Positions 33,156 through 54,059 of a stretch of DNA of 64,000 nucleotides are shown here, in pieces; within the stretch, counting starts at the first letter, position 1, and each line of letters opens with the position of its first letter. This stretch comes from Bacteroidales bacterium (GTDB lineage Bacteria; Bacteroidota; Bacteroidia; Bacteroidales; UBA10428). The position numbers and the translations under genes are program-made. Below the pieces are notes generated by a model. That model was not told where the DNA came from. It made no database searches and worked only from the letters and a program-made list of their open reading frames with translations. The stretch lies in contig JBNKPU010000010.1 of the NCBI GenBank assembly GCA_050295515.1, positions 10,826 to 74,825 on the forward strand. The letters run 5' to 3'.

Positions 33156-33166
33156 GGTCGATTAGT

Positions 33167-35693: not shown

Positions 35694-35719
35694 AAGAAAT
35701 ATTTTAGTGTGAGACTTAT

Positions 35720-37136: not shown

Positions 37137-37157
37137 ACCTAATATAAGTAATCAACA

Positions 37158-37190
37158 AGAAGGACCCATTTGGGGCCTTCTCTATTTTAT
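37158..37190. terminator. bidirectional hairpin terminator between ald and rex
   Basis: AGAAGGACCC-ATTT-GGGGCCTTCT (one mismatch) followed by a T-rich tract. Confidence 0.6.
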
Positions 37191-37844
37191 AAAGAATCCA
37201 ATTTCTTCAAGTGAAGTGATGATATCATAGTTTTTTAGGTATACATTTTCGGGCACGTCGAGATGTTCTGAAGTAAAATTAAGTATGCCTGTTATTCCAA
37301 CATCAACAATAATATTGGCAAGTTCAACGGCAGAATCGGGTGGCGTTGTCAATACAGCAATATCTACCCCAAGCTCTTTCATCTTCTCAGGCATTGATTC
37401 AATATGGTAGCATGTAACCCCGGCTACTTCTTTCCCAGTCTTTGTTGCATCAATATCAAAACCTGCAACAATGTTCATTTTTGTTTCATTCTTACGGATA
37501 AAGGTTGTAACTGCCCTGCCCAAATTCCCCATTCCAATAATTGCCAGGTTATGGCCACTTTTGGTATCAATCATCTCACTGATATGCTCGATTAGATCTT
37601 TTACATTATAACCTTTACGATGATTCCCCGAAATCCCCAATAACATTAAATCTCTTCGCACCTGCACAGACGTAAGGTTGAGGAGCCTGGCCAAATCGTG
37701 TGAAAAAATATATTGCTCGTCCTTCTGGCTATATTTGCTTAACAAACGCCTGTATTTGCTTAGTCTTTCAATAGTACGCGGTGGTATCTTTTGCTGATCC
37801 AAATTATGATTCAATTTTGATTTTGAAGTTTTGCAAATATACAA
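37182..37844 (-). CDS. rex: redox-sensing transcriptional repressor Rex
   Basis: IPPRTIERLSKYRRLL, SHDLARLLNLTSVQVRRDL wHTH, Rossmann IIGMGNLG. Confidence 0.92.
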   Translation of the reverse strand: MYICKTSKSKLNHNLDQQKIPPRTIERLSKYRRLLSKYSQKDEQYIFSHDLARLLNLTSVQVRRDLMLLGISGNHRKGYNVKDLIEHISEMIDTKSGHNLAIIGMGNLGRAVTTFIRKNETKMNIVAGFDIDATKTGKEVAGVTCYHIESMPEKMKELGVDIAVLTTPPDSAVELANIIVDVGITGILNFTSEHLDVPENVYLKNYDIITSLEEIGFFIK

Positions 37845-42041: not shown

Positions 42042-42091
42042 TATATTTTGTATATTTAGCTTTAACTTAAAATCTCATAAACCAAATCAAT

Positions 42092-43108: not shown

Positions 43109-43127
43109 TTCTTAGTACAATCAGTTT

Positions 43128-43469: not shown

Positions 43470-43534
43470 GACATTTTGCACTTTTTTTGACTAAAAAAAC
43501 TTTATATTTACAGATAACCTACAAACAATCAATC

Positions 43535-44305
43535 ATGTGTGATACCTGCGGTTGTGGAAATCCAGATGAAGGTTACACAATATCTAAGCCTTCCGACACA
43601 AAAACCGAACCTACTTTAAACCACGAACACGAAAACCATGGACATGGACATGGACATGGGCATGGTCATGGAACAAAAATTGAAATAAACACCCCGGTAT
43701 TAAGCAACAACAACTTATTAGCCGAACGAAACAGGGGCTATTTCGAGGCAAAAGATATCAGGGCTTTTAATATGGTCAGCTCTCCTGGAAGTGGAAAAAC
43801 AACCATATTGGAAAAAACAATCCCTCTTTTAAAAGACAAGGATGTCTGTGTAATTGAAGGCGACCAGCAAACACTGAATGATGCAAAACGTATTGAGCAA
43901 ACTGGCGCAAATGTAATCCAGGTTAATACTGGCAATGGCTGTCACCTTGATGCGGATATGGTCAACCATGCAGTTAAAGAACTGGCTCCAACAGAGGGGG
44001 CCTTGCTTTTTATCGAGAATGTTGGCAATTTAGTCTGTCCGGCACTCTTTGACCTGGGCGAAAAATCGAGGATTGTGATAATAAGTGTCACCGAAGGGGC
44101 TGACAAACCATTAAAATACCCAAATATGTTCGAGACATCGCAATTGTGCATTATCAATAAAACTGACCTCCTGCCTTATGTCGATTTTGATGTAAAACTG
44201 TTTAAGGAATATGCACTGAAAATCAACCATCATCTCGATTTTATAGAACTGTCTGCCAGTAAGGGTGATGGAATCGAAAAATTGATCAGTTGGATATTGG
44301 CATAA
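43535..44305 (+). CDS. hypB: nickel-binding GTPase HypB
   Basis: MCDTCGCG N-terminal motif, His-rich HEHENHGHGHGHGHGHG stretch, GSGKTT P-loop. Start moved to the ATG at 43535. Confidence 0.92.
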   Translation: MCDTCGCGNPDEGYTISKPSDTKTEPTLNHEHENHGHGHGHGHGHGTKIEINTPVLSNNNLLAERNRGYFEAKDIRAFNMVSSPGSGKTTILEKTIPLLKDKDVCVIEGDQQTLNDAKRIEQTGANVIQVNTGNGCHLDADMVNHAVKELAPTEGALLFIENVGNLVCPALFDLGEKSRIVIISVTEGADKPLKYPNMFETSQLCIINKTDLLPYVDFDVKLFKEYALKINHHLDFIELSASKGDGIEKLISWILA

Positions 44306-44311
44306 ACTAAA

Positions 44312-44845
44312 TTATTTCCTGTCGAAAAATACATTCTTTGAAGTGCAGCTCAATGGAATACCATAAATAATCTTTACATCATCTCCCATTAGTCCAAGTT
44401 CTTTTACTGCCATTCCTACCGTATACATAACACGGTTATCTATACGTTCATCCATAGCTATACTCACTGCAGAACCAACAGCAATTCCCAGGTCACCCGT
44501 GTTAAATGCACAAGGATGGTCAGGGTATTTTTTCTTTTCAGCACAGCCACTAAATCCACAAAGACTACAATAAGCAAGGCCCATAGTTTGAATTTTGGTG
44601 CCAAGCAACACCATATATTCTGCTTCAAGAATATTTCCGGCATCGCGGGAAAAAGCTGGTGTGGTATTAGGTCTTGCCCCTATTTCTTTCATACGATTGG
44701 CAATCTTTAGAATATCAGCCTTTTCGGCCAGGACAATCTCCAAATTGTCCATCCCTTTGCCTTTCGGGGCAGTTCGGGCCGCAGCCATCATTTTTAGGGC
44801 AACATTTTTTACAGCCAGCTCCCTTGCTTTTTGTTCTTTGATCAT
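44312..44845 (-). CDS. DUF2148-type ferredoxin-domain protein
   Basis: 177 aa with central CSLCGFSGC...HPC Cys motif and overall family-like sequence. Confidence 0.65.
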   Translation of the reverse strand: MIKEQKARELAVKNVALKMMAAARTAPKGKGMDNLEIVLAEKADILKIANRMKEIGARPNTTPAFSRDAGNILEAEYMVLLGTKIQTMGLAYCSLCGFSGCAEKKKYPDHPCAFNTGDLGIAVGSAVSIAMDERIDNRVMYTVGMAVKELGLMGDDVKIIYGIPLSCTSKNVFFDRK

Positions 44846-45382
44846 TTTAATGTAGATTCTGTTTCCAGGATAAATTTAATCATTCGTAGATAGTATTCAG
44901 GAACCAAACACATGCAAAAAAGACTAACTTATTGAAAATTAAAGCATCTGACTTTTAATTTTTAATGAATCTAAGCAGTTTACTTCCCTTGCCATCTTAC
45001 AACTTTACAAAATACAGAACCTTTGGTCATTGAGATACATCGAGAGTATTTATCGTTCCAGGTTCCTCAGAAGGAATCTGGACAATTCAGCCCTATACAT
45101 TTTTAATGTGTATTGAATGGTTTAAAGTGCAAGTTTAAGAGTAATGTTGTAAGCTCAGATCAGCATAACCTCCACAAAAGAGATAAAAAAAAACACCAAA
45201 AAGTCAGTCTTCTCCACATACAATGGTATCAGAAGAAAATAATGGCTTATTCAGGCAGACAGATCTTTGTCCCAAACCCAAAGAACAAAGCAAACCACCT
45301 TGATTTTTATTTAGAATCCTTTTATACAATCCCTGCCAAAAATTTATACTAATTCTAAATAAGTCCACAAACCGCACCAGTA

Positions 45383-45400
45383 TTGTTATCTGAATAACAT
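45383..45400. promoter_or_regulatory. Rex-type operator TTGTTATCTGAATAACAT
   Basis: 11/12 match to TTGTTA-N6-TAACAA, about 110 nt upstream of the ATG at 45509. Confidence 0.5.
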
Positions 45401-45441
45401 TTTGTTTTACACCCCTTGATATTTCTAGGATTCAGGCAACT

Positions 45442-45459
45442 TTGTTATTGAAATAACAG
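45442..45459. promoter_or_regulatory. Rex-type operator TTGTTATTGAAATAACAG
   Basis: 11/12 match. Immediately upstream of a TATCTTTG (TAnnTTTG) -7 box at 45470-45477. Confidence 0.5.
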
Positions 45460-45508
45460 TATAAGGGTTTATCTTTGACAAAGAAAATAATGACATCCGG
45501 CACTTAAA

Positions 45509-45853
45509 ATGAAGATTCGGGAAATAATCAATAGTATAGAAGGCGAATTTGCTTGTGGAGAAAGCCATGCGGACGCACAAATTGACAGGGCATGTGCATC
45601 TGACCTAATGAGCGATATCCTGACTTTAAACTCAGAAGAAATGATTCTGATTACCGGATTAATAAACATGCAGGTTATCCGAACAGCAGAAATGGCAGAT
45701 ATCAAACATATACTCTTTGTAAGAAACAAAAAGCCGAGCCAGGAAATGATCGACTTGGCCAACAGAGAGGACATGAGTATTATTCTCAGTAAAAAATCAA
45801 TGTTTGCCACATGCGGTCTGTTGGCTAAGGCCGGACTAGAAGCAGTATATTAA
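45509..45853 (+). CDS. DRTGG-domain protein 1
   Basis: 114 aa. CASDLMSDIL and LITGL..QVIRTAEM blocks typical of DRTGG. Paralogous to 47632-47982. Confidence 0.75.
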   Translation: MKIREIINSIEGEFACGESHADAQIDRACASDLMSDILTLNSEEMILITGLINMQVIRTAEMADIKHILFVRNKKPSQEMIDLANREDMSIILSKKSMFATCGLLAKAGLEAVY

Positions 45854-46269
45854 TGATGGAGCTGGAATATAATATAATAGGTGGGGATTTTGGACAGGCT
45901 GGCACATCTTCCAGTGATGTAAAAAAGGTGCTAAAACAACTAAATATTGCCCCGCCAATTATTAAGCGCATAGCTGTTGCCATGTACGAGGCCGAAGTGA
46001 ATGTTGTGGCACATGCCTACAATGGAACAATGAAGGTAAACATAAGCCCTGAGTTGGTTGTGATACACGTTGAAGATGAAGGTCCGGGCATACATGATAT
46101 AGACCAGGCCATGCAGGAGGGATTCTCAACCGCAACCGAAGCCGTAAGACAAATGGGATTTGGAGCAGGAATGGGATTGCCAAATATTAAAAAGAATGTT
46201 GACGAACTAAGCATAAAAAGTAAAGTCGGAAAAGGCACTACTGTTGTACTTACGACAAAAATCAATTAA
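45853..46269 (+). CDS. small HATPase-type protein (anti-sigma-factor/Ser-kinase-like, RsbW/SpoIIAB size class)
   Basis: 138 aa. E..N...HA N-box-like (YEAEVNVVAHA), DEGPGI and GAGMGLPNI G-boxes. Start overlaps the preceding stop (TAATG). Confidence 0.7.
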   Translation: MMELEYNIIGGDFGQAGTSSSDVKKVLKQLNIAPPIIKRIAVAMYEAEVNVVAHAYNGTMKVNISPELVVIHVEDEGPGIHDIDQAMQEGFSTATEAVRQMGFGAGMGLPNIKKNVDELSIKSKVGKGTTVVLTTKIN

Positions 46270-47616
46270 ATGGAGAAAATGGTTTTTCATCATGCACTTA
46301 AGGTTTTGGAGGATATATGCTACGGCTGTACCCACTGTGTGCGCGTATGCCCCACAGAAGCTTTGCGTGTGCGCGATGGAAAAGCCAACCTGGATGACAA
46401 CCGCTGCATAGATTGCGGAAAATGCATGCAGGCTTGCCCTGTGAATGCTATCATAATCGATCATGACGATTTCAACTCCATTTTTGAATATAAGGTCAGA
46501 GTAGCCCTGGTTTCTTCCATTTTCATAGGCCAGTTTCCAAGGCATTATTCCACAAGGAAAATTTATAGCGGTATCCTTGAACAAGGATTCACTCATGTTT
46601 ACGAAGCTGAACATGGTTCTGGTATCCTTGCTGATGAAATTAATCAGTATTTAGAGCAAAATAAATCTACACGTCCAATAATATCATCTTTCTGTCCGGC
46701 AATAGTAAGATTAGTGCAGGTCCGCTTTCCGAGTCTCACTGAAAACCTGATGCTGTTAAAGGCTCCTTTGGATATTTCTGCCTTATCATTCAAACAGGAA
46801 CTATTGGACCGTGGATTTAAAGAAGATGAAATAGGAATATTCTACATCACTCCATGTGCAGCAAAAATTGCAGCAATAAAAAGCCCTGTAGGTGAGCAGA
46901 ATTCACCAATAAATGGGGTAATCAACATGGATATCATCTACAACAAAGTATACAGGGACCTGAAAAAAGAAACCCGCTCAACCTGCATTGTTCCTGAAAA
47001 AGAACAACTTAAATCAGAAGAAATGGTCTGGAGTTTAACAGGTGGGGAATCCAAAAATATCAATGGGCGGTGCCTGGCTATTGATGGAATCAACAATGCA
47101 ATTGATTTTCTGGAAGGGATAGAAAATGGCAACATTACCAATTTCGACTTTATTGAAGTGCGTGCATGCGACCAAAGCTGCACCGGTGGCATCCTCACTA
47201 CTTCAAATCGCTTTCTGACAACAGAAAGGCTTGAAGAAAGGCTTGTCAAATACGAAAACGACAAAGTTGAAGGCAAACTTTACAACAACAAGTCGATTGA
47301 CAAACATATCGACTTTGTAAAACAAAATATAAAAATTGGGACAATCGAGCCCCGTTCAATGCTCAAGCTAGATGACGATATTGAGTCTGCCATGAAAAAA
47401 ATGGCCCGCATTAAGCGGCTTAATTCATTCCTGCCTGGCATCGATTGTGGAGCTTGTGGTACACCTTCGTGTAAATCCCTGTCTGAAGATGTGGTTCAAG
47501 GCTTTGCCCACACTTCTGACTGTGTTTTTATCCAAACCTCGCTCAATGCCAGTGAAGATAAGCCAATAAGGGCCGAAGAAATTTGGGGCAAAGACAGGTT
47601 CAGGAAATTAACTTAA
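46270..47616 (+). CDS. [FeFe]-hydrogenase-like protein with divergent H-cluster motifs (sensory-type candidate)
   Basis: Two ferredoxin CxxCxxCxxxCP motifs. H-domain motifs are SSFCPAIV (versus TSCCPxW), TPCAAKIAA (versus MPCxxKxxE) and EVRACDQSCTGG (versus ExMACxxGCxxGGGQP). C-terminal LPGIDCGACGTPSCKSL is an RnfB-like Fe-S motif. Confidence 0.75.
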   Translation: MEKMVFHHALKVLEDICYGCTHCVRVCPTEALRVRDGKANLDDNRCIDCGKCMQACPVNAIIIDHDDFNSIFEYKVRVALVSSIFIGQFPRHYSTRKIYSGILEQGFTHVYEAEHGSGILADEINQYLEQNKSTRPIISSFCPAIVRLVQVRFPSLTENLMLLKAPLDISALSFKQELLDRGFKEDEIGIFYITPCAAKIAAIKSPVGEQNSPINGVINMDIIYNKVYRDLKKETRSTCIVPEKEQLKSEEMVWSLTGGESKNINGRCLAIDGINNAIDFLEGIENGNITNFDFIEVRACDQSCTGGILTTSNRFLTTERLEERLVKYENDKVEGKLYNNKSIDKHIDFVKQNIKIGTIEPRSMLKLDDDIESAMKKMARIKRLNSFLPGIDCGACGTPSCKSLSEDVVQGFAHTSDCVFIQTSLNASEDKPIRAEEIWGKDRFRKLT

Positions 47617-47631
47617 GGACATAAGCTATAA

Positions 47632-47982
47632 ATGCTGATGACTATGAAATTAAAAGAAGTTGTTGACAAATTAGAAATAAAAGTAATCTGCGGAGAAGAA
47701 TTCCTCGATAAAGAAGTTACCGGGGGATATTGCTCAGACTTGCTCAGCGATGTTATGGGCCATGCTAATGAAGGGTCAGTATGGCTTACTATTCAAGTAC
47801 ATAAAAACATCGTAGCTGTCGCATCGCTAAAGGAGCTTTCTGCTATTATGTTGGTTCAAGGGCTAATACCGACGGAAGAGACGATAGAAACGGCGCGGGA
47901 ACAAAACATCCCGATCCTTCAGGCGAGTGAGCCTTCTTTCGAGATTGCTGGCAGGTTATACAACTTACTAAGGCAATCATGA
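47632..47982 (+). CDS. DRTGG-domain protein 2
   Basis: 116 aa. YCSDLLSDVM block and overall similarity to 45509-45853. Confidence 0.72.
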   Translation: MLMTMKLKEVVDKLEIKVICGEEFLDKEVTGGYCSDLLSDVMGHANEGSVWLTIQVHKNIVAVASLKELSAIMLVQGLIPTEETIETAREQNIPILQASEPSFEIAGRLYNLLRQS

Positions 47983-48719
47983 GGTGGTATCGTGCCGATA
48001 TGCATATCCATTCAGTTTTGTCCCCCTGTGGGGATTTGGATATGAGTCCGGTGCGAATCATCCATGAAGCCAAAATAAAAGGCTTGGACATCATCGCCAT
48101 AACCGATCATAATGCTTCGGACCATACGCGATTGATGATTGAACTGGGCAAACAGACCGGAATTACAGTTTTTCCGGGATTGGAGGTTAACACCCAGGAA
48201 GAAGTCCATTGCCTGGCGCTCTTTGAAAATATTGAGAAAACCGAATTGTTTCAGGAATACATTGACAAAAATTTACCTGACATTACGAACCGCCCAGAAA
48301 AGTTTGGACACCAGGTAGTTGTCAATAAATCTGAAGAAATTGTGGCTGAAAAGAAAAAGCTTTTGCTCAGTGGAGTTATGGTGGGAATAAGCGAGGTAGA
48401 AAAAAAAGTACATGAACTTGATGGAATATTCATCCCGGCACATGTCGACAGAAAGAGAAACAGTATCTTTTCACAAATTGGTTTTATACCTGAAGACCTG
48501 AAAATTGATGCCATAGAGATTTCTTCCAATGTAGATTTTGAAGAATTTCTAAACACAAAACCAGCATTGAGAAAGTATGCGGCCATTACAAATTCAGATG
48601 CCCATTACCCCGAAAACATTGCCAAATCATCTACCCTGTACTATATGCAGGAACCAACATTTGCTGAGTGGAAAAAATCACTAAGCTGTTCAGGCAACCG
48701 GAAAATTAAGCTGGCATGA
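47979..48719 (+). CDS. PHP-domain metal-dependent phosphoesterase
   Basis: ADMHIHSVLSPCG, IAITDHN and PAHVDR motifs. ATGA overlaps at both ends. Confidence 0.8.
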   Translation: MRWYRADMHIHSVLSPCGDLDMSPVRIIHEAKIKGLDIIAITDHNASDHTRLMIELGKQTGITVFPGLEVNTQEEVHCLALFENIEKTELFQEYIDKNLPDITNRPEKFGHQVVVNKSEEIVAEKKKLLLSGVMVGISEVEKKVHELDGIFIPAHVDRKRNSIFSQIGFIPEDLKIDAIEISSNVDFEEFLNTKPALRKYAAITNSDAHYPENIAKSSTLYYMQEPTFAEWKKSLSCSGNRKIKLA

Positions 48720-49258
48720 AAGAAATATCATTACATATTCTTGATATAGTGCAAAATTCCATTCATGCTGAATCTTCTAAGGTACATATTGAAATTGCCG
48801 AGTCTAAACAACAGGACAAAATCAAGGTTTGCATTACAGATGATGGGCATGGCATGAATACTGAGCTACTTAAAAATGTTCAGGACCCATTCTTTACAAC
48901 AAAGAGTAAAAAAACCGGACTGGGCATCCCTCTTTTGAGGCAACATGCCGAACAAACCGGAGGACATATGACAATAGAATCGGAGCCTGGTATGGGCACA
49001 AAAACAGAAGCTGTTTTTGGACTTACCCATCTTGACAGGCAACCAATTGGAAATATTACTGAAACAATAATCAGCCTAATTAGGACAAACTCCGGAATTA
49101 GGTTTATCTATTCGCACAGTGTTGATCATAAAACATTTGAGCTGGATACACAGGAAGTAGAAAAGGAACTGGATGGACTGTCCATAGGGAATCCTGAGAT
49201 TATAGGTTTTCTCCAAGATATGATCAAAGAGAATTTAAAAGAAATTGGAGCTAGTTAG
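48716..49258 (+). CDS. HATPase_c-only ATP-binding protein (no DHp/HisKA domain)
   Basis: N-box ILDIVQNSIHA, G1 DDGHGM, G2 TGLGIPLL. 180 aa. Confidence 0.75.
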   Translation: MKEISLHILDIVQNSIHAESSKVHIEIAESKQQDKIKVCITDDGHGMNTELLKNVQDPFFTTKSKKTGLGIPLLRQHAEQTGGHMTIESEPGMGTKTEAVFGLTHLDRQPIGNITETIISLIRTNSGIRFIYSHSVDHKTFELDTQEVEKELDGLSIGNPEIIGFLQDMIKENLKEIGAS

Positions 49259-49353
49259 AAAGAGTATAAATAAGTCTTATCCTGACTTTTAATACCCCAA
49301 TAACTTGGCTGTAAATAAAGAAACAACTTAAATTTATTATAAAAGAATGCAAC

Positions 49354-49758
49354 ATGGGAAAAGTTAAAACCTTAGATGATCTTAGAAAGCTTCGCGAAGA
49401 ACTGAAAAGCAAAACAAGCCTTCGTGAGAAAAGCGAAAACCCCGAAGAACTTGTTCAGGTAAAAGTTGCCATGGCAACTTGCTGCATCGCTTCAGGTTCG
49501 CGCGAAACCATGAATTATATGGCAGACGAGCTTGAAAAAAGGAACATCGAAGCTGTCGTAACCCAAACTGGATGTATGGGTTATTGCTACGCTGAACCAA
49601 CCGTTGAAGTCAGCATACCAGGAAAAGACCCAATCGTTTTTGGTTATGTCGACGAGAAAAAAGCGGATGAAATTATTGAGAAATATATAAAAGGTGGCGA
49701 ATTGATTGATGGCATTATACCAATGAACTACCAAAATATTGATGAAGACAAAAAATAA
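49354..49758 (+). CDS. thioredoxin-like [2Fe-2S] ferredoxin, HydD-like small subunit
   Basis: 134 aa. Cys pattern ATCCIASGS...GCMGYCYAEP. Immediately upstream of hydB. Confidence 0.7.
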   Translation: MGKVKTLDDLRKLREELKSKTSLREKSENPEELVQVKVAMATCCIASGSRETMNYMADELEKRNIEAVVTQTGCMGYCYAEPTVEVSIPGKDPIVFGYVDEKKADEIIEKYIKGGELIDGIIPMNYQNIDEDKK

Positions 49759-49778
49759 AGTATAGGGGAATATATATT

Positions 49779-51572
49779 ATGTCGGATTATAAAATTCACT
49801 TATTAGTATGCGGTGGCACGGGCTGTAAAGCTTCAGAGAGTGCTCAGGTGGCTGAAAACCTAAAAATGGAAGTAGGCAAACAAGGTCTGGATGATTTTGC
49901 CCAGGTAATAATTACAGGATGTTTTGGCTTTTGCGAAAAAGGACCAATTGTTAAAATTATCCCTGACAATACATTTTACACACAGGTAAAACCTTCCGAT
50001 GCCAGAGAGATCATTGAAGAGCATATTGTAAAAGGAAGAAAAGTAGAAAAACTACTGTATGTTGATCCTGAGAACGAACAAAAAGTCTCAGATTCAAAAA
50101 AAATGAATTTCTATAAGAAACAATTACGTATTGCATTGCGCAACTGTGGTATTATAGATCCTGAAAATGTCGATGAATACATTGCGCGCGATGGATATGA
50201 GGCTCTTGGTAAGGTTTTAACCACCATGACTCCTGAGGAAGCCATTAAGATAATAAAAGACTCTGGTCTCCGGGGCCGCGGTGGTGGAGGTTTCCCAACT
50301 GGCCTAAAATGGGAATTGACCCGCCAGACACCTAGCGATGTAAAATACGTTGTTTGTAATGCAGACGAAGGCGATCCGGGAGCATTTATGGACCGTTCAA
50401 TCCTGGAAGGTGATCCACACTCAGTAATTGAAGCAATGGCCATCAATGGATTTTGCACAGGCGCCAACCATGGTTTGATTTATATCCGTGCTGAATACCC
50501 CCTTGCTATCGAGCGATTGAAAACTGCCATTAAACAAGCCCGAGAATATGGTTTGCTCGGCAATAATATTTTAGGAACTGATTTCAATTTTGACATTGAA
50601 CTCAGATATGGTGCCGGAGCCTTTGTTTGTGGCGAAGAAACCGCATTGATCCACTCTATGGAAGGTGAACGTGGTGAGCCAACAATCAAACCTCCGTTCC
50701 CATCGGTTGAAGGTTACTTGAAAAAGCCTACCAACGTGAACAATGTGGAAACCTATGCCAATATCCCAATTATATTCAATAAAGGTGCAGCCTGGTTCTC
50801 AGCTATTGGAACTGAAAAATCGAAAGGAACCAAAGTATTTGCTTTGGCTGGCAAGGTAAACAATGTTGGCCTTGTTGAAGTGCCCATGGGAATAACCCTG
50901 CGTGAAGTTATTTTCGAAATTGGTGGAGGAATCAAGAATGGCAAAAAATTTAAAGCCGTACAGACTGGTGGTCCATCTGGCGGTTGTTTGACCGAAAAGC
51001 ACCTGGACACTCCTATCGATTATGATAACCTGATCGCGGCCGGCTCTATGATGGGATCTGGTGGAATGGTTGTTATGGATGAAGATGACTGCATGGTGGA
51101 CGTCGCCAAATATTTCCTTGATTTTACAGTAGAAGAATCTTGTGGAAAATGTACTCCTTGCCGCATAGGAAACAAAAGGCTTCACGAAGTTTTGGATAAA
51201 ATCACAAAAGGAAATGGCAGCCGTGCAGATATCGACAGGTTGGTCAACCTTGGTAATGTTATCAAAGACACTTCTCTTTGCGGTCTCGGACAAACGTCTC
51301 CAAATCCTGTGCTGGCAACAATCAACAACTTTAAAGAAGAATATTACGCACACGTTGACGACAAAAAATGTCCGGCAGGAGTTTGCAAAGACCTTATGGT
51401 ATATTCAATCGTTGATGAGAATTGTGTTGGCTGTACTGCTTGTGCAAGGGCTTGTCCGGTAGGAGCTATTACAGGTGAAAGGAAAGAAATTCACAACATT
51501 GATGCTGCATTATGTATTAAATGTGGAGCATGTATCGAGAAATGTAAGTTTAATGCAGTAATTGTAAAATAA
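49779..51572 (+). CDS. hydB: NADH-binding flavoprotein subunit of multimeric [FeFe] hydrogenase (NuoF-like)
   Basis: N-terminal 2Fe-2S module, GRGGGGFPTGLKWE, CNADEGDPGAFMDR, ESCGKCTPCR. Two C-terminal ferredoxin motifs (CVGCTACARACP, CIKCGACIEKC). Confidence 0.92.
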   Translation: MSDYKIHLLVCGGTGCKASESAQVAENLKMEVGKQGLDDFAQVIITGCFGFCEKGPIVKIIPDNTFYTQVKPSDAREIIEEHIVKGRKVEKLLYVDPENEQKVSDSKKMNFYKKQLRIALRNCGIIDPENVDEYIARDGYEALGKVLTTMTPEEAIKIIKDSGLRGRGGGGFPTGLKWELTRQTPSDVKYVVCNADEGDPGAFMDRSILEGDPHSVIEAMAINGFCTGANHGLIYIRAEYPLAIERLKTAIKQAREYGLLGNNILGTDFNFDIELRYGAGAFVCGEETALIHSMEGERGEPTIKPPFPSVEGYLKKPTNVNNVETYANIPIIFNKGAAWFSAIGTEKSKGTKVFALAGKVNNVGLVEVPMGITLREVIFEIGGGIKNGKKFKAVQTGGPSGGCLTEKHLDTPIDYDNLIAAGSMMGSGGMVVMDEDDCMVDVAKYFLDFTVEESCGKCTPCRIGNKRLHEVLDKITKGNGSRADIDRLVNLGNVIKDTSLCGLGQTSPNPVLATINNFKEEYYAHVDDKKCPAGVCKDLMVYSIVDENCVGCTACARACPVGAITGERKEIHNIDAALCIKCGACIEKCKFNAVIVK

Positions 51573-51581
51573 TCTGGCAAA

Positions 51582-53360
51582 ATGGAAAAAGTAAAACTCA
51601 CTATAGATAACAAACAGGTAGAAGTAGCCAAAGGAACGACTATTTACAAAGCAGCCAAGCAACTGGACATTGATATTCCTGTGCTTTGCTACATGCACCT
51701 GGAAGACTTAAAGATAGAACACAAGCCTGGTGGATGCCGCATCTGTGTGGTTGAAGTTGACGGACGCAGAAACCTGGCTCCTTCCTGCTCAACAGAAGCT
51801 ACAGAAGGCATGGTTGTCAAAACACACTCATTGAGGGTGCTGAATGCAAGAAAAACAGTAATGGAGCTGATCCTTTCTGATCACCCAAAAGATTGTTTGT
51901 CATGTGCCAAGTCAGGAAAATGCGATTTACAGGATTTAGCCCAAAAACTAGGTATACGCGAAATCCCAGATCAGGACATTGCTGCAATGTCAACATACAG
52001 GGTAGACTTCTCCCCTTCTTTGATTCGAGAGCTGGACAAATGTATCATGTGCCGCCGCTGCGAAACCATGTGTAACGATTTCCAAACTGTCGGAGCATTG
52101 TCTGCCATAAACCGAGGTTTTGAATCTGTTGTGGCACCAGCATTTGAAATGGACATTGAAGATTCGCCATGTACATACTGTGGTCAATGTGTTGCTGTTT
52201 GTCCAACAGGGGCCTTGACAGAGGTTGACCATACCAACCAATTGATCGAAGACCTGGCCAACCCAAACAAAACTGTGGTAGTTCAAACAGCGCCAGCAGT
52301 GCGTGCAGCTTTGGGCGAAGAATTTAATATGCCGGCCGGCACCAGTGTTACCGGAGAAATGGTTACTGCTCTTCGCGAACTGGGTTTCGATTATGTCTTC
52401 GATACCGATTTCGCTGCTGACCTAACAATTATGGAAGAAGGAACTGAGTTGCTTGACCGATTGACCAAGCACCTGAATGGCGATAAAAAGGTTAAACTTC
52501 CAATTTTAACATCATGCTGCCCGGGATGGGTAAACTTCTTTGAACAACAGTTTACCGACTTGTTGGATGTTCCATCAACAGCCCGCTCTCCTCAGCAAAT
52601 GTTTGGTGCTATTGCCAAGACCTACTTTGCCGATAAGATCAATGTAAAAAGAGAAGACCTGGTTGTGGTATCCATCATGCCATGTCTGGCAAAAAAATAC
52701 GAATGCCAACGCGACGAATTCAAAGTTGACGGTAACCCCGATGTGGATTATTCTGTATCGACCCGCGAATTGGCCAGCCTGATCAAGCGTGCAAACATCG
52801 ATTTAAAAACACTTAAGAAACAAGACTTTGATGCACCTATGGGTGAATCTACCGGTGCTGCCGTGATTTTTGGTGCTACTGGTGGTGTAATTGAAGCTGC
52901 AACACGTACTGCATATGAGATCCATACAGGCAAAACCCTGGAGAAGGTTGATTTTGAAGCACTCCGCGGACTTGATGGCATACGTGAGGCAACTGTTGAT
53001 TTCGATGGATTACCAATCAAAATCGGTATTGCACACGGTTTAGGAAATGCCCGCAAATTACTGGAAGATGTAAGAGCAGGAAAGAGCGAATTCCATGCCA
53101 TTGAGATTATGGCTTGTCCTGGTGGATGTATTGGTGGTGGAGGACAACCCTTGCACCATGGCGATTCAAGTGTGATCCAGAAACGTTTTGAGGCAATCTA
53201 TGCTGAAGACAAAACCAAAACTTTGCGCAAATCGCATGAGAACCCATACATCATAAAGCTGTATGAAGAGTTCCTTGGCAAACCAATGAGCGAAAAAGCG
53301 CATCACTTGCTGCACACACATTATGTGGACAAGAGCAAGAAAGTAATTTATATGAAATAA
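51582..53360 (+). CDS. hydA: catalytic [FeFe] hydrogenase subunit (M3-type, group A)
   Basis: Canonical H-cluster motifs TSCCPGWV, MPCLAKKYE and EIMACPGGCIGGGGQP, plus N-terminal 2Fe-2S and 4Fe-4S domains. Confidence 0.95.
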   Translation: MEKVKLTIDNKQVEVAKGTTIYKAAKQLDIDIPVLCYMHLEDLKIEHKPGGCRICVVEVDGRRNLAPSCSTEATEGMVVKTHSLRVLNARKTVMELILSDHPKDCLSCAKSGKCDLQDLAQKLGIREIPDQDIAAMSTYRVDFSPSLIRELDKCIMCRRCETMCNDFQTVGALSAINRGFESVVAPAFEMDIEDSPCTYCGQCVAVCPTGALTEVDHTNQLIEDLANPNKTVVVQTAPAVRAALGEEFNMPAGTSVTGEMVTALRELGFDYVFDTDFAADLTIMEEGTELLDRLTKHLNGDKKVKLPILTSCCPGWVNFFEQQFTDLLDVPSTARSPQQMFGAIAKTYFADKINVKREDLVVVSIMPCLAKKYECQRDEFKVDGNPDVDYSVSTRELASLIKRANIDLKTLKKQDFDAPMGESTGAAVIFGATGGVIEAATRTAYEIHTGKTLEKVDFEALRGLDGIREATVDFDGLPIKIGIAHGLGNARKLLEDVRAGKSEFHAIEIMACPGGCIGGGGQPLHHGDSSVIQKRFEAIYAEDKTKTLRKSHENPYIIKLYEEFLGKPMSEKAHHLLHTHYVDKSKKVIYMK

Positions 53361-53397
53361 TAAGAAGCGTATAGTATTAACAGAAAAGTAAAAGATT

Positions 53398-53883
53398 ATG
53401 TCTAGAATAAAAGTTGAACTTAAGAAAGAAAAGATAGATAAAATCAACGAAATATGCGCTTCATTCAACAATGATGCTGGTGAGTTGATTAATGTGTTGC
53501 ATAAAGTACAAAGCACTTTTGGTTATCTACCTGCAGAGGTACAGGAAGTTGTTGCCAAAGGTTTAGATGTACCAGTTGCCAAAGTATATGGTGTTGTTAC
53601 CTTTTACAGTTTCTTTACCATGAAACCCAAAGGCAAACATCCCATCTCAATCTGTACAGGTACAGCCTGTTATGTAAGAGGGGCCGAGAAAGTTCTGGAT
53701 GAATTCAAGAAAGAACTTAATGTTAGCGTTGGCGAAACCACTGCAGATGGTAAATTCTCAATTGCATGTCTGCGCTGTGTTGGAGCTTGTGGCCTGGCAC
53801 CAGTGGTTATGGTAGGTGACAAAACTTACGGTAGGGTTGCACCAGAAATGGTGAAGGACATTTTATCCAATTACGAAGACTGA
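53398..53883 (+). CDS. hydC: NuoE-like [2Fe-2S] subunit of multimeric [FeFe] hydrogenase
   Basis: CTGTACYVRG...CLRCVGACGLAP motif. 161 aa. Confidence 0.9.
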   Translation: MSRIKVELKKEKIDKINEICASFNNDAGELINVLHKVQSTFGYLPAEVQEVVAKGLDVPVAKVYGVVTFYSFFTMKPKGKHPISICTGTACYVRGAEKVLDEFKKELNVSVGETTADGKFSIACLRCVGACGLAPVVMVGDKTYGRVAPEMVKDILSNYED

Positions 53884-53909
53884 CACAAGTAACGCTCATA
53901 ATTAAAAAG

Positions 53910-53937
53910 GCCCTGCAAGAATTTGTGGGGCTTTTTT
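53910..53937 (+). terminator. rho-independent terminator after hydC
   Basis: GCCCTGCAA-GAAT-TTGTGGGGC stem (with G-U pairs) followed by TTTTTT. Confidence 0.7.
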
Positions 53938-54059
53938 ATGCCTGGCATTTGACTGTTGTAGATATTTTTCATAATTGTAGGACACAACCTTGTAGAAGTT
54001 GTATAATCTCCATTTCCCGAATATTTTATACTTTTAATCAACAATAATAATATCCAACC

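What the first reader, a model, noticed from the sequence alone, without database searches (positions are those of the whole stretch)
45509..49258. Six-gene putative H2/redox-sensing module (DRTGG-HATPase-HydS-like / DRTGG-PHP-HATPase) with no recognisable output, fused to the hydDBAC operon
Six ORFs are translationally coupled. The junctions are TAATG at 45853, abutting codons at 46269/46270, and ATGA overlaps at 47979 and 48716. The set ends 95 nt before hydD-hydB-hydA-hydC. The module looks like an internal duplication: [DRTGG 114 aa + 138-aa RsbW/SpoIIAB-sized HATPase] followed by an H-cluster-like protein, then [DRTGG 116 aa + PHP phosphoesterase + 180-aa HATPase_c-only protein]. The two DRTGG proteins are clear paralogues (CASDLMSDIL versus YCSDLLSDVM). 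The set therefore has a plausible input (the Fe-S/H-cluster protein), two ATP-binding kinase-like proteins and a phosphoesterase. It has no DHp/HisKA domain, receiver, STAS partner, sigma factor or DNA-binding domain. The phospho-acceptor and the regulated step (transcription or direct control of the HydABC enzyme) cannot be read from the sequence. I recall similar accessory genes next to multimeric [FeFe] hydrogenase genes in Thermotogae and Firmicutes, so the neighbourhood is probably conserved. To my knowledge it has not been explained mechanistically.
Basis: partly seen in the sequence, partly recalled or inferred. Interest (0 to 1): 0.75.

Follow-up and report, generated by a model that had tools for sequence, protein, structure and literature searches.

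The report
Hydrogen-sensor gene set beside bifurcating hydrogenase
These six genes are a Bacteroidales copy of a widespread but unexplained accessory set built around a hydrogenase-like putative H2 sensor (Group D HydS), and comparing genomes points to the sensor's likely direct partners, which the field still lists as unknown.

Summary
Six tightly packed genes (45509-49258) encode DRTGG (D1), a SpoIIAB-like ATPase/kinase (K1), a Group D/M2e HydS-like [FeFe]-hydrogenase, a second DRTGG (D2), a PHP phosphoesterase and a 180-aa ATP-binding protein (K2). hydD-hydB-hydA-hydC follow, and the only terminator lies after hydC.

In 80 related loci from at least four phyla, D1-K1-HydS is an almost invariant core (72 of 75). 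D2-PHP(-K2) is an add-on that tracks adjacency to HydABC. Natural D1-HydS, K1-HydS and HydS-D2 fusions suggest these proteins bind the sensor directly.

"Internal duplication" holds only for the DRTGG pair.

My best reading is that Rex sets transcription from NADH/NAD+. The module is then a post-translational, ATP-dependent H2-responsive switch, assembled on HydS through the DRTGG adaptors. K2 (A. woodii "HydE") and HydD would link it to HydABC.

Identity is firm. The mechanism is inferred and the phospho-acceptor remains unknown. The sensor class and its nearby "kinase" are already in the literature. The DRTGG/PHP components, the two-tier structure and the fusions did not appear in the literature I could search.

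The parts
45383..45400 (.). Distal Rex-like operator TTGTTATCTGAATAACAT (perfect TGTTAT-N4-ATAACA core)
   Evidence: Only two perfect copies occur in the 64-kb window, both here. The same palindrome (<=1 mismatch) lies within 400 nt upstream of D1 in 21 of 74 related loci, against about 1 expected. It matches the clostridial Rex consensus TTGTTAANNNNTTAACAA (PMC8457756) except at the innermost position of each half-site.
45442..45459 (.). Proximal Rex-like operator TTGTTATTGAAATAACAG, overlapping the core promoter
   Evidence: It lies between a -33-like TTTG (45441) and the -7 element TATCTTTG (45470-45477).
45470..45477 (+). Bacteroidetes-type -7 promoter element TAnnTTTG (TATCTTTG), 31 nt before the D1 start codon
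   Evidence: The consensus is from my own knowledge of Bacteroides promoters. Function is inferred.
45509..45853 (+). D1: 114-aa stand-alone DRTGG protein with invariant motifs S31-D-L-M-S35-D-V-L, T49-G-L-x-N-x-Q-x-x-R-T, R72/K74 and S97
   Evidence: Pfam DRTGG 23.4 bits. AF2 pLDDT 95.2. Foldseek AF1212 TM 0.84, CBS-PPase DRTGG 0.75, HPrK N-domain 0.66, no STAS hit. Conservation. Fused to the N-terminus of HydS in P0177 and P0193.
45853..46269 (+). K1: 138-aa SpoIIAB/RsbW-like GHKL protein (putative Ser/Thr protein kinase or binding switch) with intact motif I (E46-x3-N50), G1 (D75xGPGI) and lid/G2 (MGFGAGMGLPN)
   Evidence: HATPase_c_2 47.9 bits and TIGR01925 E=5.6e-19, below its cut-off. 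Its only solved relatives are SpoIIAB (E~6e-10) and RsbW. Conservation. Present upstream of HydS in 72 of 75 loci. Fused to HydS in P0170.
46270..47616 (+). HydS-like Group D/M2e [FeFe]-hydrogenase homologue. Two N-terminal [4Fe-4S] motifs (C17/20/23/27 and C46/49/52/56), an H-domain with all four H-cluster Cys (C142, C196, C300, C304) but the proton-relay Cys lost (SSFCP), a C-terminal Cx2Cx4Cx16C (C393/396/401/418), and no PAS domain
   Evidence: The M2e definition is from PMC8163306.
47632..47982 (+). D2: 116-aa DRTGG paralogue with motifs Y33-x-x-D-L-L-S39-D-V-M and W51-x-T-x-Q-x-H-x-N
   Evidence: Pfam DRTGG 26.9 bits and Hpr_kinase_N 25.1 bits. Paralogous to D1, E=2e-16. Conservation. 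Fused to the C-terminus of HydS in P0140, P0159, P0194, P0229 and P0254.
47979..48719 (+). PHP-family metal-dependent phosphoesterase (246 aa) with a complete set of metal ligands (H9, H11, D43/H44, E69, H77, H155, D207, H209) and a conserved LSPC17 motif
   Evidence: Nearest solved relatives are the EndoQ PHP domain (profile E=3e-15), pAp-type phosphoesterases, RNase AM and PolC PHP. No protein-tyrosine-phosphatase PHP appears at E<=1.
48716..49258 (+). K2: 180-aa ATP-binding protein, matched by description, size and gene position (not by direct sequence comparison) to A. woodii 'HydE'. A Bergerat fold (1-102; D10-x3-N14, D42xGxG, G68xG70) plus a conserved alpha/beta C-terminal domain (103-180; D107, G112, T145)
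   Evidence: HATPase_c 60 bits and HATPase_c_3 41 bits. AF2 pLDDT 90.3. Foldseek full-length best hits are MutL/MLH1/PMS2 N-terminal modules (TMq 0.57-0.61), while HK CA domains cover only about 100 aa. Uniform ~180-aa family in Bacteroidota and Bacillota. Sits between hydC and hydD in Firmicutes. HydE description in PMC3315566.
49354..49758 (+). HydD: thioredoxin-like ferredoxin-fold protein with only three conserved Cys (C43, C74, C78). It travels with K2 and, in L084, with the sensor set even where HydABC is absent
49779..51572 (+). HydB (NuoF-like FMN/NADH subunit with Fe-S domains)
51582..53360 (+). HydA: catalytic NADH-dependent (bifurcating-type) group A [FeFe]-hydrogenase with canonical TSCCP / MPC / MACxxGC motifs
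   Evidence: NF040763 899 bits, above the 765 cut-off. Motifs.
53398..53883 (+). HydC (NuoE-like [2Fe-2S] subunit)
53903..53938 (+). Intrinsic terminator closing the ten-gene unit (16-bp stem and U-run)
   Evidence: dG -23.2 kcal/mol, z = -3.3. The 95-nt K2-hydD gap has no significant structure (z = -0.3).
37182..37844 (-). rex: redox-sensing transcriptional repressor, the probable trans-acting regulator of the operon
   Evidence: Pfam PF06971 + PF02629. NCBIfam NF003995 192.5 bits, above the 126 cut-off. A rex gene also lies near the module in 7 other loci.

Best explanation
The six genes are the accessory set of a Group D (M2e) putative H2-sensing [FeFe]-hydrogenase, HydS. Here they are co-transcribed with an electron-bifurcating HydABC(D) hydrogenase as one ten-gene operon.

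The set has two tiers. The core tier is D1 (DRTGG), K1 (SpoIIAB-like ATP-binding kinase or switch) and HydS, which I infer form one physical sensor complex. The second tier is D2 (DRTGG) and the PHP phosphoesterase, with K2 often added. K2 and HydD sit at the interface with the HydABC enzyme.

Proposed mechanism:
1. Transcription of the whole operon is set by Rex in response to NADH/NAD+. This is supported by sequence and by precedent.
2. HydS binds H2 at an H-cluster whose proton relay is disabled, so it reports H2 rather than turning it over. This has been shown for the homologue TamHydS, not here.
3. The signal leaves through the N-terminal Fe-S domain, next to which D1 and K1 are encoded and, in some lineages, fused. 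This step is inferred.
4. K1 uses ATP to phosphorylate or clamp a partner. The PHP enzyme, docked on the C-terminal domain of HydS through D2, reverses the step. This is inferred, and the acceptor is unknown. Candidates are the invariant Ser in the D-L-(M/L)-S motif of D1/D2, HydS itself, K2 or HydD.
5. The output is post-translational tuning or assembly control of HydABC through K2/HydD, not transcription. This is inferred.
For: Identity:
- HydS meets all the M2e sequence criteria.
- HydA is a group A6/A3-type NADH-dependent hydrogenase scoring above the NCBIfam cut-off.

Functional coupling:
- D1 and K1 precede HydS in 72 of 75 loci from several phyla.
- The trio stands alone in Sphaerochaeta globosa Buddy.
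- All components persist in a shuffled order in a gut isolate.

Physical association:
- D1-HydS, K1-HydS and HydS-D2 fusions recur at full length. They keep the subfamily motifs and the same N- or C-terminal polarity as the gene order.

Catalytic competence:
- K1 and K2 keep all the GHKL ATP-binding motifs.
- PHP keeps all its metal ligands.
- K1's only solved relatives are the Ser-kinase/anti-sigma proteins SpoIIAB and RsbW.
- The gene order D1-K1-HydS mirrors spoIIAA-spoIIAB-sigF (my own knowledge).

Adaptor role of DRTGG:
- D1 has the DRTGG / HPrK-N-domain fold. This fold recurs as a regulatory or oligomerisation domain on phosphoryl-transfer enzymes: CBS-PPase and HPrK/P and Pta.
- One paralogue is translationally coupled to K1 and the other to PHP.

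Link to the enzyme:
- Where D2+PHP follow HydS, HydA lies downstream in 32 of 36 loci. Where they are absent, it does so in 2 of 12.
- K2 sits between hydC and hydD in Firmicutes.

Transcription accounted for separately:
- Two Rex operators overlap the promoter.
- All four sites with <=1 mismatch in the 64 kb lie in promoter regions of H2 operons (hydGE, hox, and this operon).
- Across all loci, 54 of 64 sites lie upstream of module or hyd genes.
- The window encodes rex.
- Rex binds the orthologous operon in C. thermocellum and C. bescii (PMC8457756).

No output domain:
- No DNA-binding or receiver domain recurs next to any version of the module.

Biochemistry of the homologue:
- In TamHydS, H2 reduces an N-terminal cluster but not the C-terminal one, and H2 causes secondary-structure changes (PMC13104023).
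Against: - No phosphotransfer, binding or H2 response has been shown for any of these proteins. Steps 3-5 are inference.
- D1 is not a STAS fold, so the partner-switching analogy rests on K1 and on gene order alone.
- PHP's solved relatives act on nucleic acids or nucleotides, not on phosphoproteins.
- K2 resembles MutL-type ATP clamps as much as it resembles kinases, and it has Asp rather than Glu at the catalytic-base position.
- The core trio occurs far from any hydrogenase genes in spirochaetes, UBP6 and some Bacteroidales. Its target therefore need not be HydABC.
- The 80 loci are the best-scoring subset of at least 596 hits. They are phylogenetically non-independent and dominated by Bacteroidales.
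- Interfaces could not be modelled, because no multimer prediction or coordinates were available.
Confidence: 0.45

Rival explanations
1. True partner switching with a transcriptional output. K1 is an anti-sigma factor that sequesters a sigma factor, or another transcription factor, encoded elsewhere. D1 acts as the anti-anti-sigma analogue. HydS modulates the switch, and PHP resets it.
For: K1's only solved relatives are the anti-sigma factors SpoIIAB and RsbW, and NCBIfam's best hit is 'anti-sigma F factor'. The core trio is often unlinked to hydrogenase genes, which fits a diffusible or global output. TamHydS is reported next to an AraC-type regulator (PMC8163306).
Against: No sigma factor or DNA-binding gene recurs near the module in 80 loci. 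K1 scores far below the SpoIIAB equivalog cut-off (68 against 135 bits). K1 is fused to HydS in one lineage, which implies a stable complex rather than a free anti-sigma factor. No STAS partner is present. Rex already explains promoter control.
Confidence: 0.15
2. An assembly, maturation or repair system rather than a signalling system. K2 (a MutL/Hsp90-like ATP clamp), PHP, the DRTGG proteins and the HydS-like protein would help assemble, insert cofactors into, or reactivate HydABC. HydS would serve as an H-cluster or Fe-S scaffold or carrier.
For: K2's full-length fold is closest to GHL ATP clamps. The A. woodii authors suggested 'assembly or signalling' for HydE (PMC3315566). K2 and HydD are interleaved with the structural genes in Firmicutes. 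The maturase genes hydE and hydG are in the same island and carry a Rex-like site.
Against: Many organisms have HydABC and K2 without the sensor set, and others have the sensor trio without adjacent HydABC (PMC3315566). TamHydS is a stable holo-enzyme with sensor-like kinetics, not a transient scaffold (PMC8163306). A SpoIIAB-like protein has no precedent in cofactor assembly.
Confidence: 0.15
3. A nucleotide-ligand integrator. D1 and D2 are small-molecule sensors that bind an adenine nucleotide, NAD(H) or a related phospho-ligand in the conserved basic crevice. PHP degrades that ligand. K1 and K2 read ATP. HydS adds the H2 input. The complex would then integrate energy charge, redox state and H2 without any protein phosphorylation.
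For: In D1 the invariant residues (S31/D32, T49-N53, R58, R72/K74, S97) all lie in the loops after the beta-strands of an alpha/beta fold, which is the usual ligand site. Relatives with the DRTGG fold sit in nucleotide-regulated enzymes such as CBS-PPase, HPrK/P and Mur-type ligases. PHP's solved relatives hydrolyse nucleotides or nucleic acids.
Against: No ligand is known for any DRTGG domain itself. In CBS-PPase the CBS pair binds the nucleotide (my own knowledge). The SDLMSD motif could not be aligned to solved DRTGG proteins. K1 retains a complete kinase-type active site.
Confidence: 0.2
4. Fortuitous adjacency: unrelated small genes that merely sit upstream of hydDBAC.
For: None beyond the lack of experimental data.
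Against: The set is conserved across phyla, the genes are translationally coupled, the set is retained even when gene order is shuffled, and natural fusions exist.
Confidence: 0.01

Closest known systems
Group D (M2e) putative sensory [FeFe]-hydrogenase, e.g. TamHydS of Thermoanaerobacter mathranii (probably what HydDB calls group C1 'histidine-kinase-linked'; I did not verify that mapping)
   Same: The domain plan is the same: 2x[4Fe-4S], an H-domain, a C-terminal Cx2Cx4Cx16C, no PAS domain, the proton-relay Cys lost, and both methionines framing the diiron site replaced. The gene lies upstream of a trimeric bifurcating hydrogenase and next to a 'histidine kinase-like ATPase' (PMC8163306, PMC3561251).
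   Different: This copy is from Bacteroidales, not Firmicutes, and shares about 36-38% identity with the Firmicute homologues found here. The substituted residues differ: T and R here at the positions where TamHydS has S and L. Gene order also differs, with hydC last and K2 before hydD. The published work treats the enzyme alone and does not describe D1, D2 or PHP.
SpoIIAA-SpoIIAB-sigmaF and RsbV-RsbW-sigmaB partner-switching modules
   Same: K1 is a ~140-aa single-domain GHKL protein whose only solved relatives are SpoIIAB and RsbW. The three-gene syntax is the same: a small alpha/beta protein, then the kinase, then the target, all translationally coupled.
   Different: There is no STAS protein (D1 has a DRTGG fold), no sigma factor and no PP2C phosphatase (a PHP enzyme is present instead). 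K1 is below the equivalog cut-offs, and the third gene is a hydrogenase-like sensor.
Group C HydS/HfsB systems (PAS-containing sensory [FeFe]-hydrogenase with a PP2C phosphatase and Ser/Thr kinase; R. albus, T. maritima, Thermoanaerobacterium)
   Same: A hydrogenase-like sensor with a disabled proton relay and a C-terminal 4-Cys cluster, encoded next to a catalytic hydrogenase and next to kinase and phosphatase genes. Genetics there supports a regulatory role (PMC11837493).
   Different: There is no PAS domain here. The kinase is SpoIIAB-like rather than Hanks- or HPr-type. The phosphoesterase is PHP rather than PP2C. DRTGG proteins are additionally present.
[NiFe] regulatory hydrogenase HoxBC-HoxJ-HoxA (H2 sensor plus two-component system)
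   Same: The concept is the same: a catalytically slow hydrogenase paralogue acts as the H2 sensor that controls an energy-conserving hydrogenase.
   Different: The metal centre differs. That system has a bona fide histidine kinase (DHp plus PAS) and a DNA-binding response regulator. Neither is present here.
Rex regulon of fermentative anaerobes
   Same: The operator differs from the clostridial consensus by one base per half-site. The targets are hydrogenase structural and maturase genes. A rex gene is present (PMC8457756).
   Different: In Firmicutes the site precedes hydC, so it controls hydC-K2-hydD-hydB-hydA. Here it precedes D1, so the sensor genes belong to the Rex-controlled unit. The innermost position of each half-site reads T/A instead of A/T.

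Membership tests
Group D / M2e [FeFe]-hydrogenase (putative sensory) | H-domain with the four H-cluster cysteine ligands | tested here: met
   C142, C196, C300 and C304 align with the HydA ligands and are invariant in 20 diverse homologues.
Group D / M2e [FeFe]-hydrogenase (putative sensory) | [quoted passage not shown] | tested here: met
   C17/20/23/27 and C46/49/52/56; Pfam Fer4 families.
Group D / M2e [FeFe]-hydrogenase (putative sensory) | C-terminal Cx2Cx4Cx16C motif and no PAS domain | tested here: met
   C393-x2-C396-x4-C401-x16-C418; PF04060; no PAS hit.
Group D / M2e [FeFe]-hydrogenase (putative sensory) | Proton-relay Cys (CpI C299) and the flanking Met residues not conserved | tested here: met
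   TSCCP becomes SSFCP, MPC becomes TPC, and IMAC becomes VRAC, compared with the window's own HydA.
Group D / M2e [FeFe]-hydrogenase (putative sensory) | Phylogenetic placement within the group D clade alongside TamHydS | not tested
   No TamHydS sequence was available. The evidence is indirect: Firmicute homologues (36-38% identity) have the gene order reported for TTE0887-0894 and Cthe_0335-0342 (PMC3561251).
Group D / M2e [FeFe]-hydrogenase (putative sensory) | Binds an H-cluster and responds to H2 | not testable with these tools
   Shown only for TamHydS (PMC8163306, PMC13104023). The hydE and hydG maturase genes are present in the window.
SpoIIAB/RsbW partner-switching kinase (K1) | Single-domain GHKL fold with motif I E-x3-N, G1 and G2 | tested here: met
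   E46..N50, D75xGPGI and MGFGAGMGLPN are conserved in 80 sequences. Aligned over the full length to SpoIIAB.
SpoIIAB/RsbW partner-switching kinase (K1) | Scores above the curated family cut-off | tested here: not met
   TIGR01925 68.4 bits against 135. RsbW models score 25-31 against 145-155.
SpoIIAB/RsbW partner-switching kinase (K1) | Adjacent STAS-domain antagonist and cognate sigma factor | tested here: not met
   No STAS or sigma domain in the six proteins or in their neighbours across 80 loci. D1 has a DRTGG fold, not STAS.
Two-component sensor histidine kinase (K2, K1) | DHp/HisKA domain with a phospho-accepting His, plus a cognate receiver | tested here: not met
   Only the HATPase_c part matches. 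No HisKA or Response_reg domain in the operon.
GHL (MutL/Hsp90/GyrB-type) ATPase (K2) | Bergerat fold followed by a second alpha/beta domain that completes the ATP site; catalytic Glu in motif I | tested here: inconclusive
   The best full-length Foldseek hits are MutL/MLH1/PMS2 (TMq 0.57-0.61, rmsd 4-8 A). Motif I has an invariant Asp10 instead of Glu. Sequence identity is higher to HK CA domains, at 29%.
DRTGG domain (D1, D2) | Pfam PF07085 match or DRTGG fold | tested here: met
   D2 scores 26.9 against a 25.2 cut-off. D1 scores 23.4, below it, but its model matches AF1212 at TM 0.84 and CBS-PPase DRTGG at 0.75.
PHP metal-dependent phosphoesterase | Conserved His/Asp/Glu ligands of the trinuclear metal site | tested here: met
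   H9, H11, D43/H44, E69, H77, H155, D207 and H209 are invariant or nearly so in 33-59 sequences. Pfam 32 bits against a 26.4 cut-off.
PHP-type protein (tyrosine) phosphatase (CpsB/YwqE) | Detectable similarity to that subfamily | tested here: not met
   A profile search of the PDB at E<=1 returns EndoQ, pAp phosphatase-like proteins, RNase AM, PolC, YcdX and HisPPase, but no CpsB or YwqE.
Rex-regulated operon | Rex-type inverted repeat in the promoter and a rex gene in the genome | tested here: met
   Two operators at 45383-45400 and 45442-45459. The motif is conserved in 21 of 74 loci, and 54 of 64 sites lie upstream of module or hyd genes. The rex gene is above the NCBIfam cut-off.
Rex-regulated operon | NADH-sensitive binding of Rex to the site | not testable with these tools
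   Shown for orthologous operons in C. thermocellum and C. bescii (PMC8457756).
Electron-bifurcating HydABC (group A3/A6) | HydA above the NADH-dependent [FeFe] cut-off, with NuoF-like HydB and NuoE-like HydC | tested here: met
   NF040763 899 bits against 765. HydB TIGR01959 E=5e-146. HydC NF005722 150.9 against 141.

The most novel reading that the evidence does not exclude
D1-K1-HydS would be a previously undescribed kind of gas-responsive partner-switch. A DRTGG protein would take the place of the STAS antagonist, and a PHP phosphoesterase the place of the PP2C phosphatase. The 'target' held by the SpoIIAB-like kinase would be an H2-binding hydrogenase paralogue. The output would be direct, ATP-dependent post-translational control of an electron-bifurcating hydrogenase through the MutL-like ATP switch K2 ('HydE') and HydD. 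Cells would then set enzyme amount from NADH/NAD+ (Rex) and enzyme activity or direction from H2 partial pressure.
Probability: 0.25. Interest if true: 0.8.

Novelty: new variant of a known kind. Interest (0 to 1): 0.6.

Why it matters
Electron-bifurcating HydABC hydrogenases set the H2 and redox balance of fermenters in guts, sediments and digesters, and they are targets for biofuel engineering.

Group D HydS has been studied spectroscopically since 2019-2020. As late as 2026 its authors state that the interaction partners and the signalling mechanism are unknown. A. woodii 'HydE' (K2) has been unexplained since 2012.

This analysis turns that open question into specific tests:
- It names D1 and K1 (N-terminal side) and D2 (C-terminal side) as probable direct HydS partners, on the basis of natural fusions.
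- It separates a universal three-gene core from add-ons that are linked to the enzyme.
- It identifies cultured organisms that carry minimal or shuffled versions: Sphaerochaeta globosa Buddy and a human-gut isolate.
- It assigns the transcriptional layer to Rex, so experiments can look for a post-translational effect.

If the switch model is right, it would be a new signalling architecture and a handle for controlling H2 production.

Tried and rejected
- The sigma-70 promoter and terminator consensus scan was uninformative (28 found against 24.7 expected, 10 against 8.5). It also missed the real terminator and does not suit Bacteroidetes promoters.
- An Rfam search at E<=1 over 44000-54500 gave no hit, so there is no riboswitch or leader in the 663-nt upstream region or the 95-nt gap.
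- I tested whether D1 might be a structural analogue of STAS. I rejected this, because Foldseek finds only DRTGG, HPrK-N and Mur-ligase N-domain folds.
- I tested whether PHP might belong to the protein-tyrosine-phosphatase branch. This is not supported.
- I looked for an output domain next to the 'minimal' trios. Neighbours are an M16 peptidase, a TonB receptor, CoaBC, ValRS, MraZ and similar. A classical HK + OmpR pair lies upstream in L023/L024 (the pair near L077 is several genes away, and L080 carries a hybrid HK with its own receiver domain). It is not recurrent, so I did not treat it as the output.
I corrected this: the motif-I base position is i-4 from the Asn, which is the invariant D10.
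Because the tool returns no coordinates or PAE, I did not attempt co-folding of the natural fusions.
- The D1 profile aligned to solved DRTGG proteins only over residues 60-107. Whether SDLMSD is specific to this subfamily therefore rests on a failure to align, not on a positive comparison.
- Literature searches for DRTGG + hydrogenase, for PHP + histidine kinase + bifurcating hydrogenase, and for the locus tags found no functional study of the accessory genes.

Full report
**1. The observation**

The six ORFs are present exactly as described. Their junctions are TAATG at 45853, abutting codons at 46269/46270, a 15-nt spacer before 47632, and ATGA overlaps at 47979 and 48716. A 95-nt gap then precedes hydD.

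Pfam and NCBIfam confirm each domain:
- D1: DRTGG.
- K1: HATPase_c_2, with 'anti-sigma F factor' as the best NCBIfam hit.
- HydS: 2x[4Fe-4S] + Fe_hyd_lg_C + PF04060.
- D2: DRTGG.
- PHP.
- K2: HATPase_c.

The four downstream genes are a Trx-like HydD, a NuoF-like HydB, a group A NADH-dependent HydA (899 bits against a cut-off of 765) and a NuoE-like HydC.

The only strong terminator follows hydC (dG -23.2 kcal/mol, z -3.3). The 95-nt gap is unstructured and has no Rfam match. The ten genes therefore look like one transcription unit.

The closest homologues are all from Bacteroidales.

**2. What the central protein is**

I aligned the 448-aa protein to the window's own HydA. It keeps all four H-cluster cysteines. 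However, it reads SSFCP for TSCCP (the proton-relay Cys is lost), TPC for MPC, and VRAC for IMAC.

It has two N-terminal [4Fe-4S] motifs, a C-terminal C393-x2-C396-x4-C401-x16-C418, and no PAS domain. This is the published definition of the M2e / Group D 'putative sensory' [FeFe]-hydrogenases typified by TamHydS (PMC8163306).

That literature already notes several things:
- M2e genes lie upstream of trimeric bifurcating hydrogenases and near 'kinases' (PMC3561251).
[quoted passage not shown] - A 2024 survey calls group D functionally undefined.
- A 2026 paper shows that H2 does not reduce the C-terminal cluster, whereas it does reduce an N-terminal one. The same paper states that identifying the interaction partners is 'critical'.

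Searches for DRTGG + hydrogenase, for PHP + histidine kinase + bifurcating hydrogenase, and for the relevant locus tags found no description of the other accessory genes.

**3. Comparative genomics**

A scan of one genome per species found at least 596 relatives, and the best 80 loci were kept. They come from Bacteroidales, Spirochaetota, Bacillota, Atribacterota and UBP6. I annotated them with profiles seeded from the ten window proteins.

- D1 and K1 immediately precede HydS in 72 of 75 loci with enough upstream sequence.
- D2 and PHP follow HydS in 48 of 64 loci, and K2 follows in 43 of 64.
- In four Bacteroidales loci the order is permuted to D2-PHP-K2-D1-K1-HydS.
- In L030, L054 and L071 the second trio is missing and hydDBAC follows HydS directly.
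- In Firmicutes the order is D1-K1-HydS-D2-PHP-HydC-K2-HydD-HydB-HydA.
- In spirochaetes, UBP6 and some Bacteroidales the D1-K1-HydS trio stands alone among housekeeping genes. This includes the complete genome of Sphaerochaeta globosa Buddy.
- Caldatribacterium has D1-K1-HydS-D2-PHP without K2.
- Where D2+PHP follow HydS, HydA lies downstream in 32 of 36 loci. Where they are absent, it does so in 2 of 12. These loci are not phylogenetically independent.

The 'module' is therefore hierarchical: a universal core (D1-K1-HydS), then D2-PHP, then K2(-HydD), which belongs with the enzyme. K2 matches, by description, size and gene position, the protein called HydE in A. woodii. [quoted passage not shown]

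**4. Natural fusions**

Among representatives at 50% identity, HydS homologues that are 100-150 aa longer than usual turned out to be fusions:
- HydS-DRTGG with the DRTGG at the C-terminus: P0140, P0159, P0194, P0229 and P0254.
- DRTGG-HydS with it at the N-terminus: P0177 and P0193.
- HATPase_c_2-HydS: P0170.

The N-terminal DRTGG domains carry the D1 motifs. The C-terminal ones carry the D2 motifs. P0170's extra domain carries the K1 motifs. Each fusion recurs at full length in several independent assemblies, including an isolate genome.

Their contexts are informative:
- L083 reads [K1-HydS]-D2-HydC-K2-HydD-HydB-HydA, with no D1 and no PHP.
- L084, a human-gut isolate, reads K1-D2-PHP-K2-[D1-HydS]-HydD-like, with no hydABC nearby.

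The set is thus retained while its order is shuffled, and the fusions have the same polarity as the gene order. Together these observations are the strongest evidence that D1 and K1 (on the N-terminal side) and D2 (on the C-terminal side) contact HydS physically.

**5. The individual accessory proteins**

- **K1.** Its only solved relatives are SpoIIAB (E~6e-10, aligned across the whole Bergerat fold) and RsbW. Motif I (E46-x3-N50), G1 and the lid/G2 are conserved in 80 sequences. It lies far below the SpoIIAB and RsbW equivalog cut-offs.
- **D1.** It folds with pLDDT 95 into the DRTGG fold: AF1212 TM 0.84, CBS-pyrophosphatase DRTGG 0.75, HPr-kinase N-domain 0.66. No STAS protein appears among the hits. 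Its invariant residues (S31-D-L-M-S35-D, T49-G-L-x-N, R58, R72/K74, S97) lie in the loops after the beta-strands, which is the usual ligand or partner site.
- **D2.** It shares the D-L-(L/M)-S-D core with D1.
- **PHP.** It retains every metal ligand. Its solved relatives are Endonuclease Q (profile E=3e-15), pAp-type phosphoesterases, RNase AM and PolC PHP. No PHP protein-tyrosine phosphatase appears even at E<=1.
- **K2.** It folds with pLDDT 90 into two domains. The first ~100 residues resemble NtrB/ZraS-type CA domains (29% identity). The best full-length matches are MutL, MLH1 and PMS2 N-terminal modules, at TMq 0.57-0.61. Its ATP-binding motifs are intact, with an invariant Asp at the base position.
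- **K1 versus K2.** They are not paralogues in any recent sense. 'Internal duplication' therefore applies only to D1 and D2 (E=2e-16), and that duplication is ancient, because the two types stay distinct across phyla.

**6. The missing transcriptional regulator**

Two perfect TGTTAT-N4-ATAACA palindromes lie at 45384-45399 and 45443-45458. They are the only perfect copies in the 64 kb. The proximal one sits between a -33-like TTTG and a -7 TATCTTTG element.

- The palindrome, with <=1 mismatch, occurs within 400 nt upstream of D1 in 21 of 74 loci, against about 1 expected.
- With the relaxed pattern TTGTTA-N6-TAACAA, 54 of 64 sites across 1.37 Mb of loci lie just upstream of D1, HydC, HydD, K2 or HydB.
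- The motif is the clostridial Rex consensus TTGTTAANNNNTTAACAA apart from the innermost base of each half-site. Rex is known to bind the orthologous hyd operon and hydG in C. thermocellum and C. bescii (PMC8457756).
- The window encodes Rex at 37182-37844, above the NCBIfam cut-offs.
- All four sites with <=1 mismatch in the window fall in promoter regions of H2 operons: upstream of hydG-hydE, 27 nt upstream of hoxF, and the two sites here.

No DNA-binding or receiver gene recurs beside the module anywhere.

**7. Mechanism**

Shown or strongly supported:
- The identity of the parts.
- The ten-gene unit.
- The Rex-type operators.
- The co-inheritance of the set and the fusions.
- The catalytic competence of K1, K2 and PHP at the motif level.

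Shown for the homologue only:
- HydS binds an H-cluster, turns over slowly, undergoes H2-induced structural change, and has an N-terminal cluster reduced by H2.

Inferred:
- HydS is a scaffold-sensor.
- D1 and D2 are DRTGG adaptors. The same fold serves as a regulatory or oligomerisation domain on phosphoryl-transfer enzymes such as CBS-PPase, HPrK/P and Pta. Here the adaptors would dock K1 at the H2-responsive N-terminal Fe-S domain and PHP at the C-terminal cluster domain.
- K1 performs an ATP-dependent phosphorylation or clamping step, and PHP reverses it.
- K2 and HydD pass the state on to HydABC.

The gene order D1-K1-HydS mirrors spoIIAA-spoIIAB-sigF, which suggests a partner-switch logic built from non-homologous parts.

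The acceptor residue is unknown. The invariant Ser of the D-L-(M/L)-S motif is the best candidate from sequence, but this is speculative.

The rivals are an anti-sigma role with an unlinked sigma factor, an assembly or repair function, and nucleotide-ligand integration without protein phosphorylation. None of them is excluded. I give about 0.85 to the identity and the two-tier architecture, and about 0.35 to the post-translational switch as described. The overall figure is 0.45.

**8. Novelty and verdict**

The sensor class and its association with a 'kinase' and a bifurcating hydrogenase are known. This locus is a typical Bacteroidales member of that class.

The following were not found in the searchable literature:
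- The two DRTGG paralogues and the PHP enzyme as conserved members of the set.
- The split into a core and an add-on.
- The fusions that indicate direct partners.
- The SpoIIAB-like nature of K1 and the MutL-like nature of K2.
- Rex control reaching the sensor genes.

I rate this as a new variant of a known kind, with moderate to high interest (0.6). It does not overturn anything. It does make a question the field has explicitly left open directly testable, and it names tractable organisms in which to test it.

Noticed in passing
window 26263-44305: The module sits at the end of a 'hydrogen island'. It contains the H-cluster maturase genes hydE (26263-27336, -) and hydG (27350-28774, -). It also holds a complete Hox-type NAD-linked [NiFe] hydrogenase: a hoxW-like protease at 30657-31136, HoxH at 31136-32626, HoxY at 32604-33155, HoxU at 33167-33898 and HoxF at 33891-35693, all on the minus strand. 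Alanine dehydrogenase (36024-37136), rex, hypF (38456-40750) and hypD/E/A/B (40965-44305) complete it.
   Followed up: partly
window 29105-29122 and 35720-35737: There are further Rex-like sites. A perfect TTGTTACAAAAATAACAA lies upstream of hydG-hydE, and TTGTGAATTTATTAACAA lies 27 nt upstream of hoxF in the divergent region shared with the alanine dehydrogenase gene. Together with the two sites before D1, these are the only sites with <=1 mismatch in the 64 kb. This suggests a compact Rex regulon covering both hydrogenases and the maturases.
   Followed up: partly
L004, L005, L007, L008, L010, L011, L013, L015, L018, L020, L024, L027, L032 (upstream of D1): Many Bacteroidales relatives carry a second trimeric set, HydC(~155 aa)-HydB(~388 aa, short form)-HydA(~597 aa), directly upstream of D1. 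The sensor genes are then sandwiched between two hydrogenases. This window has the hyp genes and a DUF2148 gene in that position instead.
   Followed up: no
window 44312-44845 (-): A 177-aa DUF2148 (ferredoxin-domain) protein is transcribed divergently from the module, across an unusually long 663-nt intergenic region that also holds a 79-aa ORF (45113-45352) of doubtful reality.
   Followed up: no
window 49354-49758 (HydD) and L084 9611-9955: HydD keeps only three conserved cysteines (C43, C74, C78) of the four expected for a thioredoxin-like [2Fe-2S] site. A HydD-like gene follows the D1-HydS fusion in a gut isolate that has no hydABC nearby. HydD may therefore belong to the sensor set as well as to the enzyme.
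   Followed up: partly
L083 11928-14960; L067, L068, L076: In some Firmicutes, HydB is a ~1010-1080-aa fusion with a GltD-like pyridine-nucleotide-disulfide oxidoreductase domain. This hints at a different nucleotide specificity (possibly NADPH) downstream of the same sensor set.
   Followed up: no
L023 6248-8925, L024 6193-8878: A classical histidine kinase plus an OmpR-type response regulator sits immediately upstream of D1 in two Bacteroidales loci (a similar pair in L077, 4038-7440, lies several genes upstream of K1). It is not recurrent elsewhere, so I did not treat it as the output, but it could be a lineage-specific add-on.
   Followed up: partly
window 46270 vs 46279: One public annotation of the identical protein (P0001, 445 aa) starts three codons later than the ORF used here. 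Homologues conserve the longer M-x-x N-terminus, so the abutting K1/HydS junction is probably real.
   Followed up: partly
window 54060-54731: The gene after the terminator encodes a Pyr4-like transmembrane terpene-cyclase family protein (PF25129), which is unusual for Bacteroidales. It appears unrelated to the operon.
   Followed up: no
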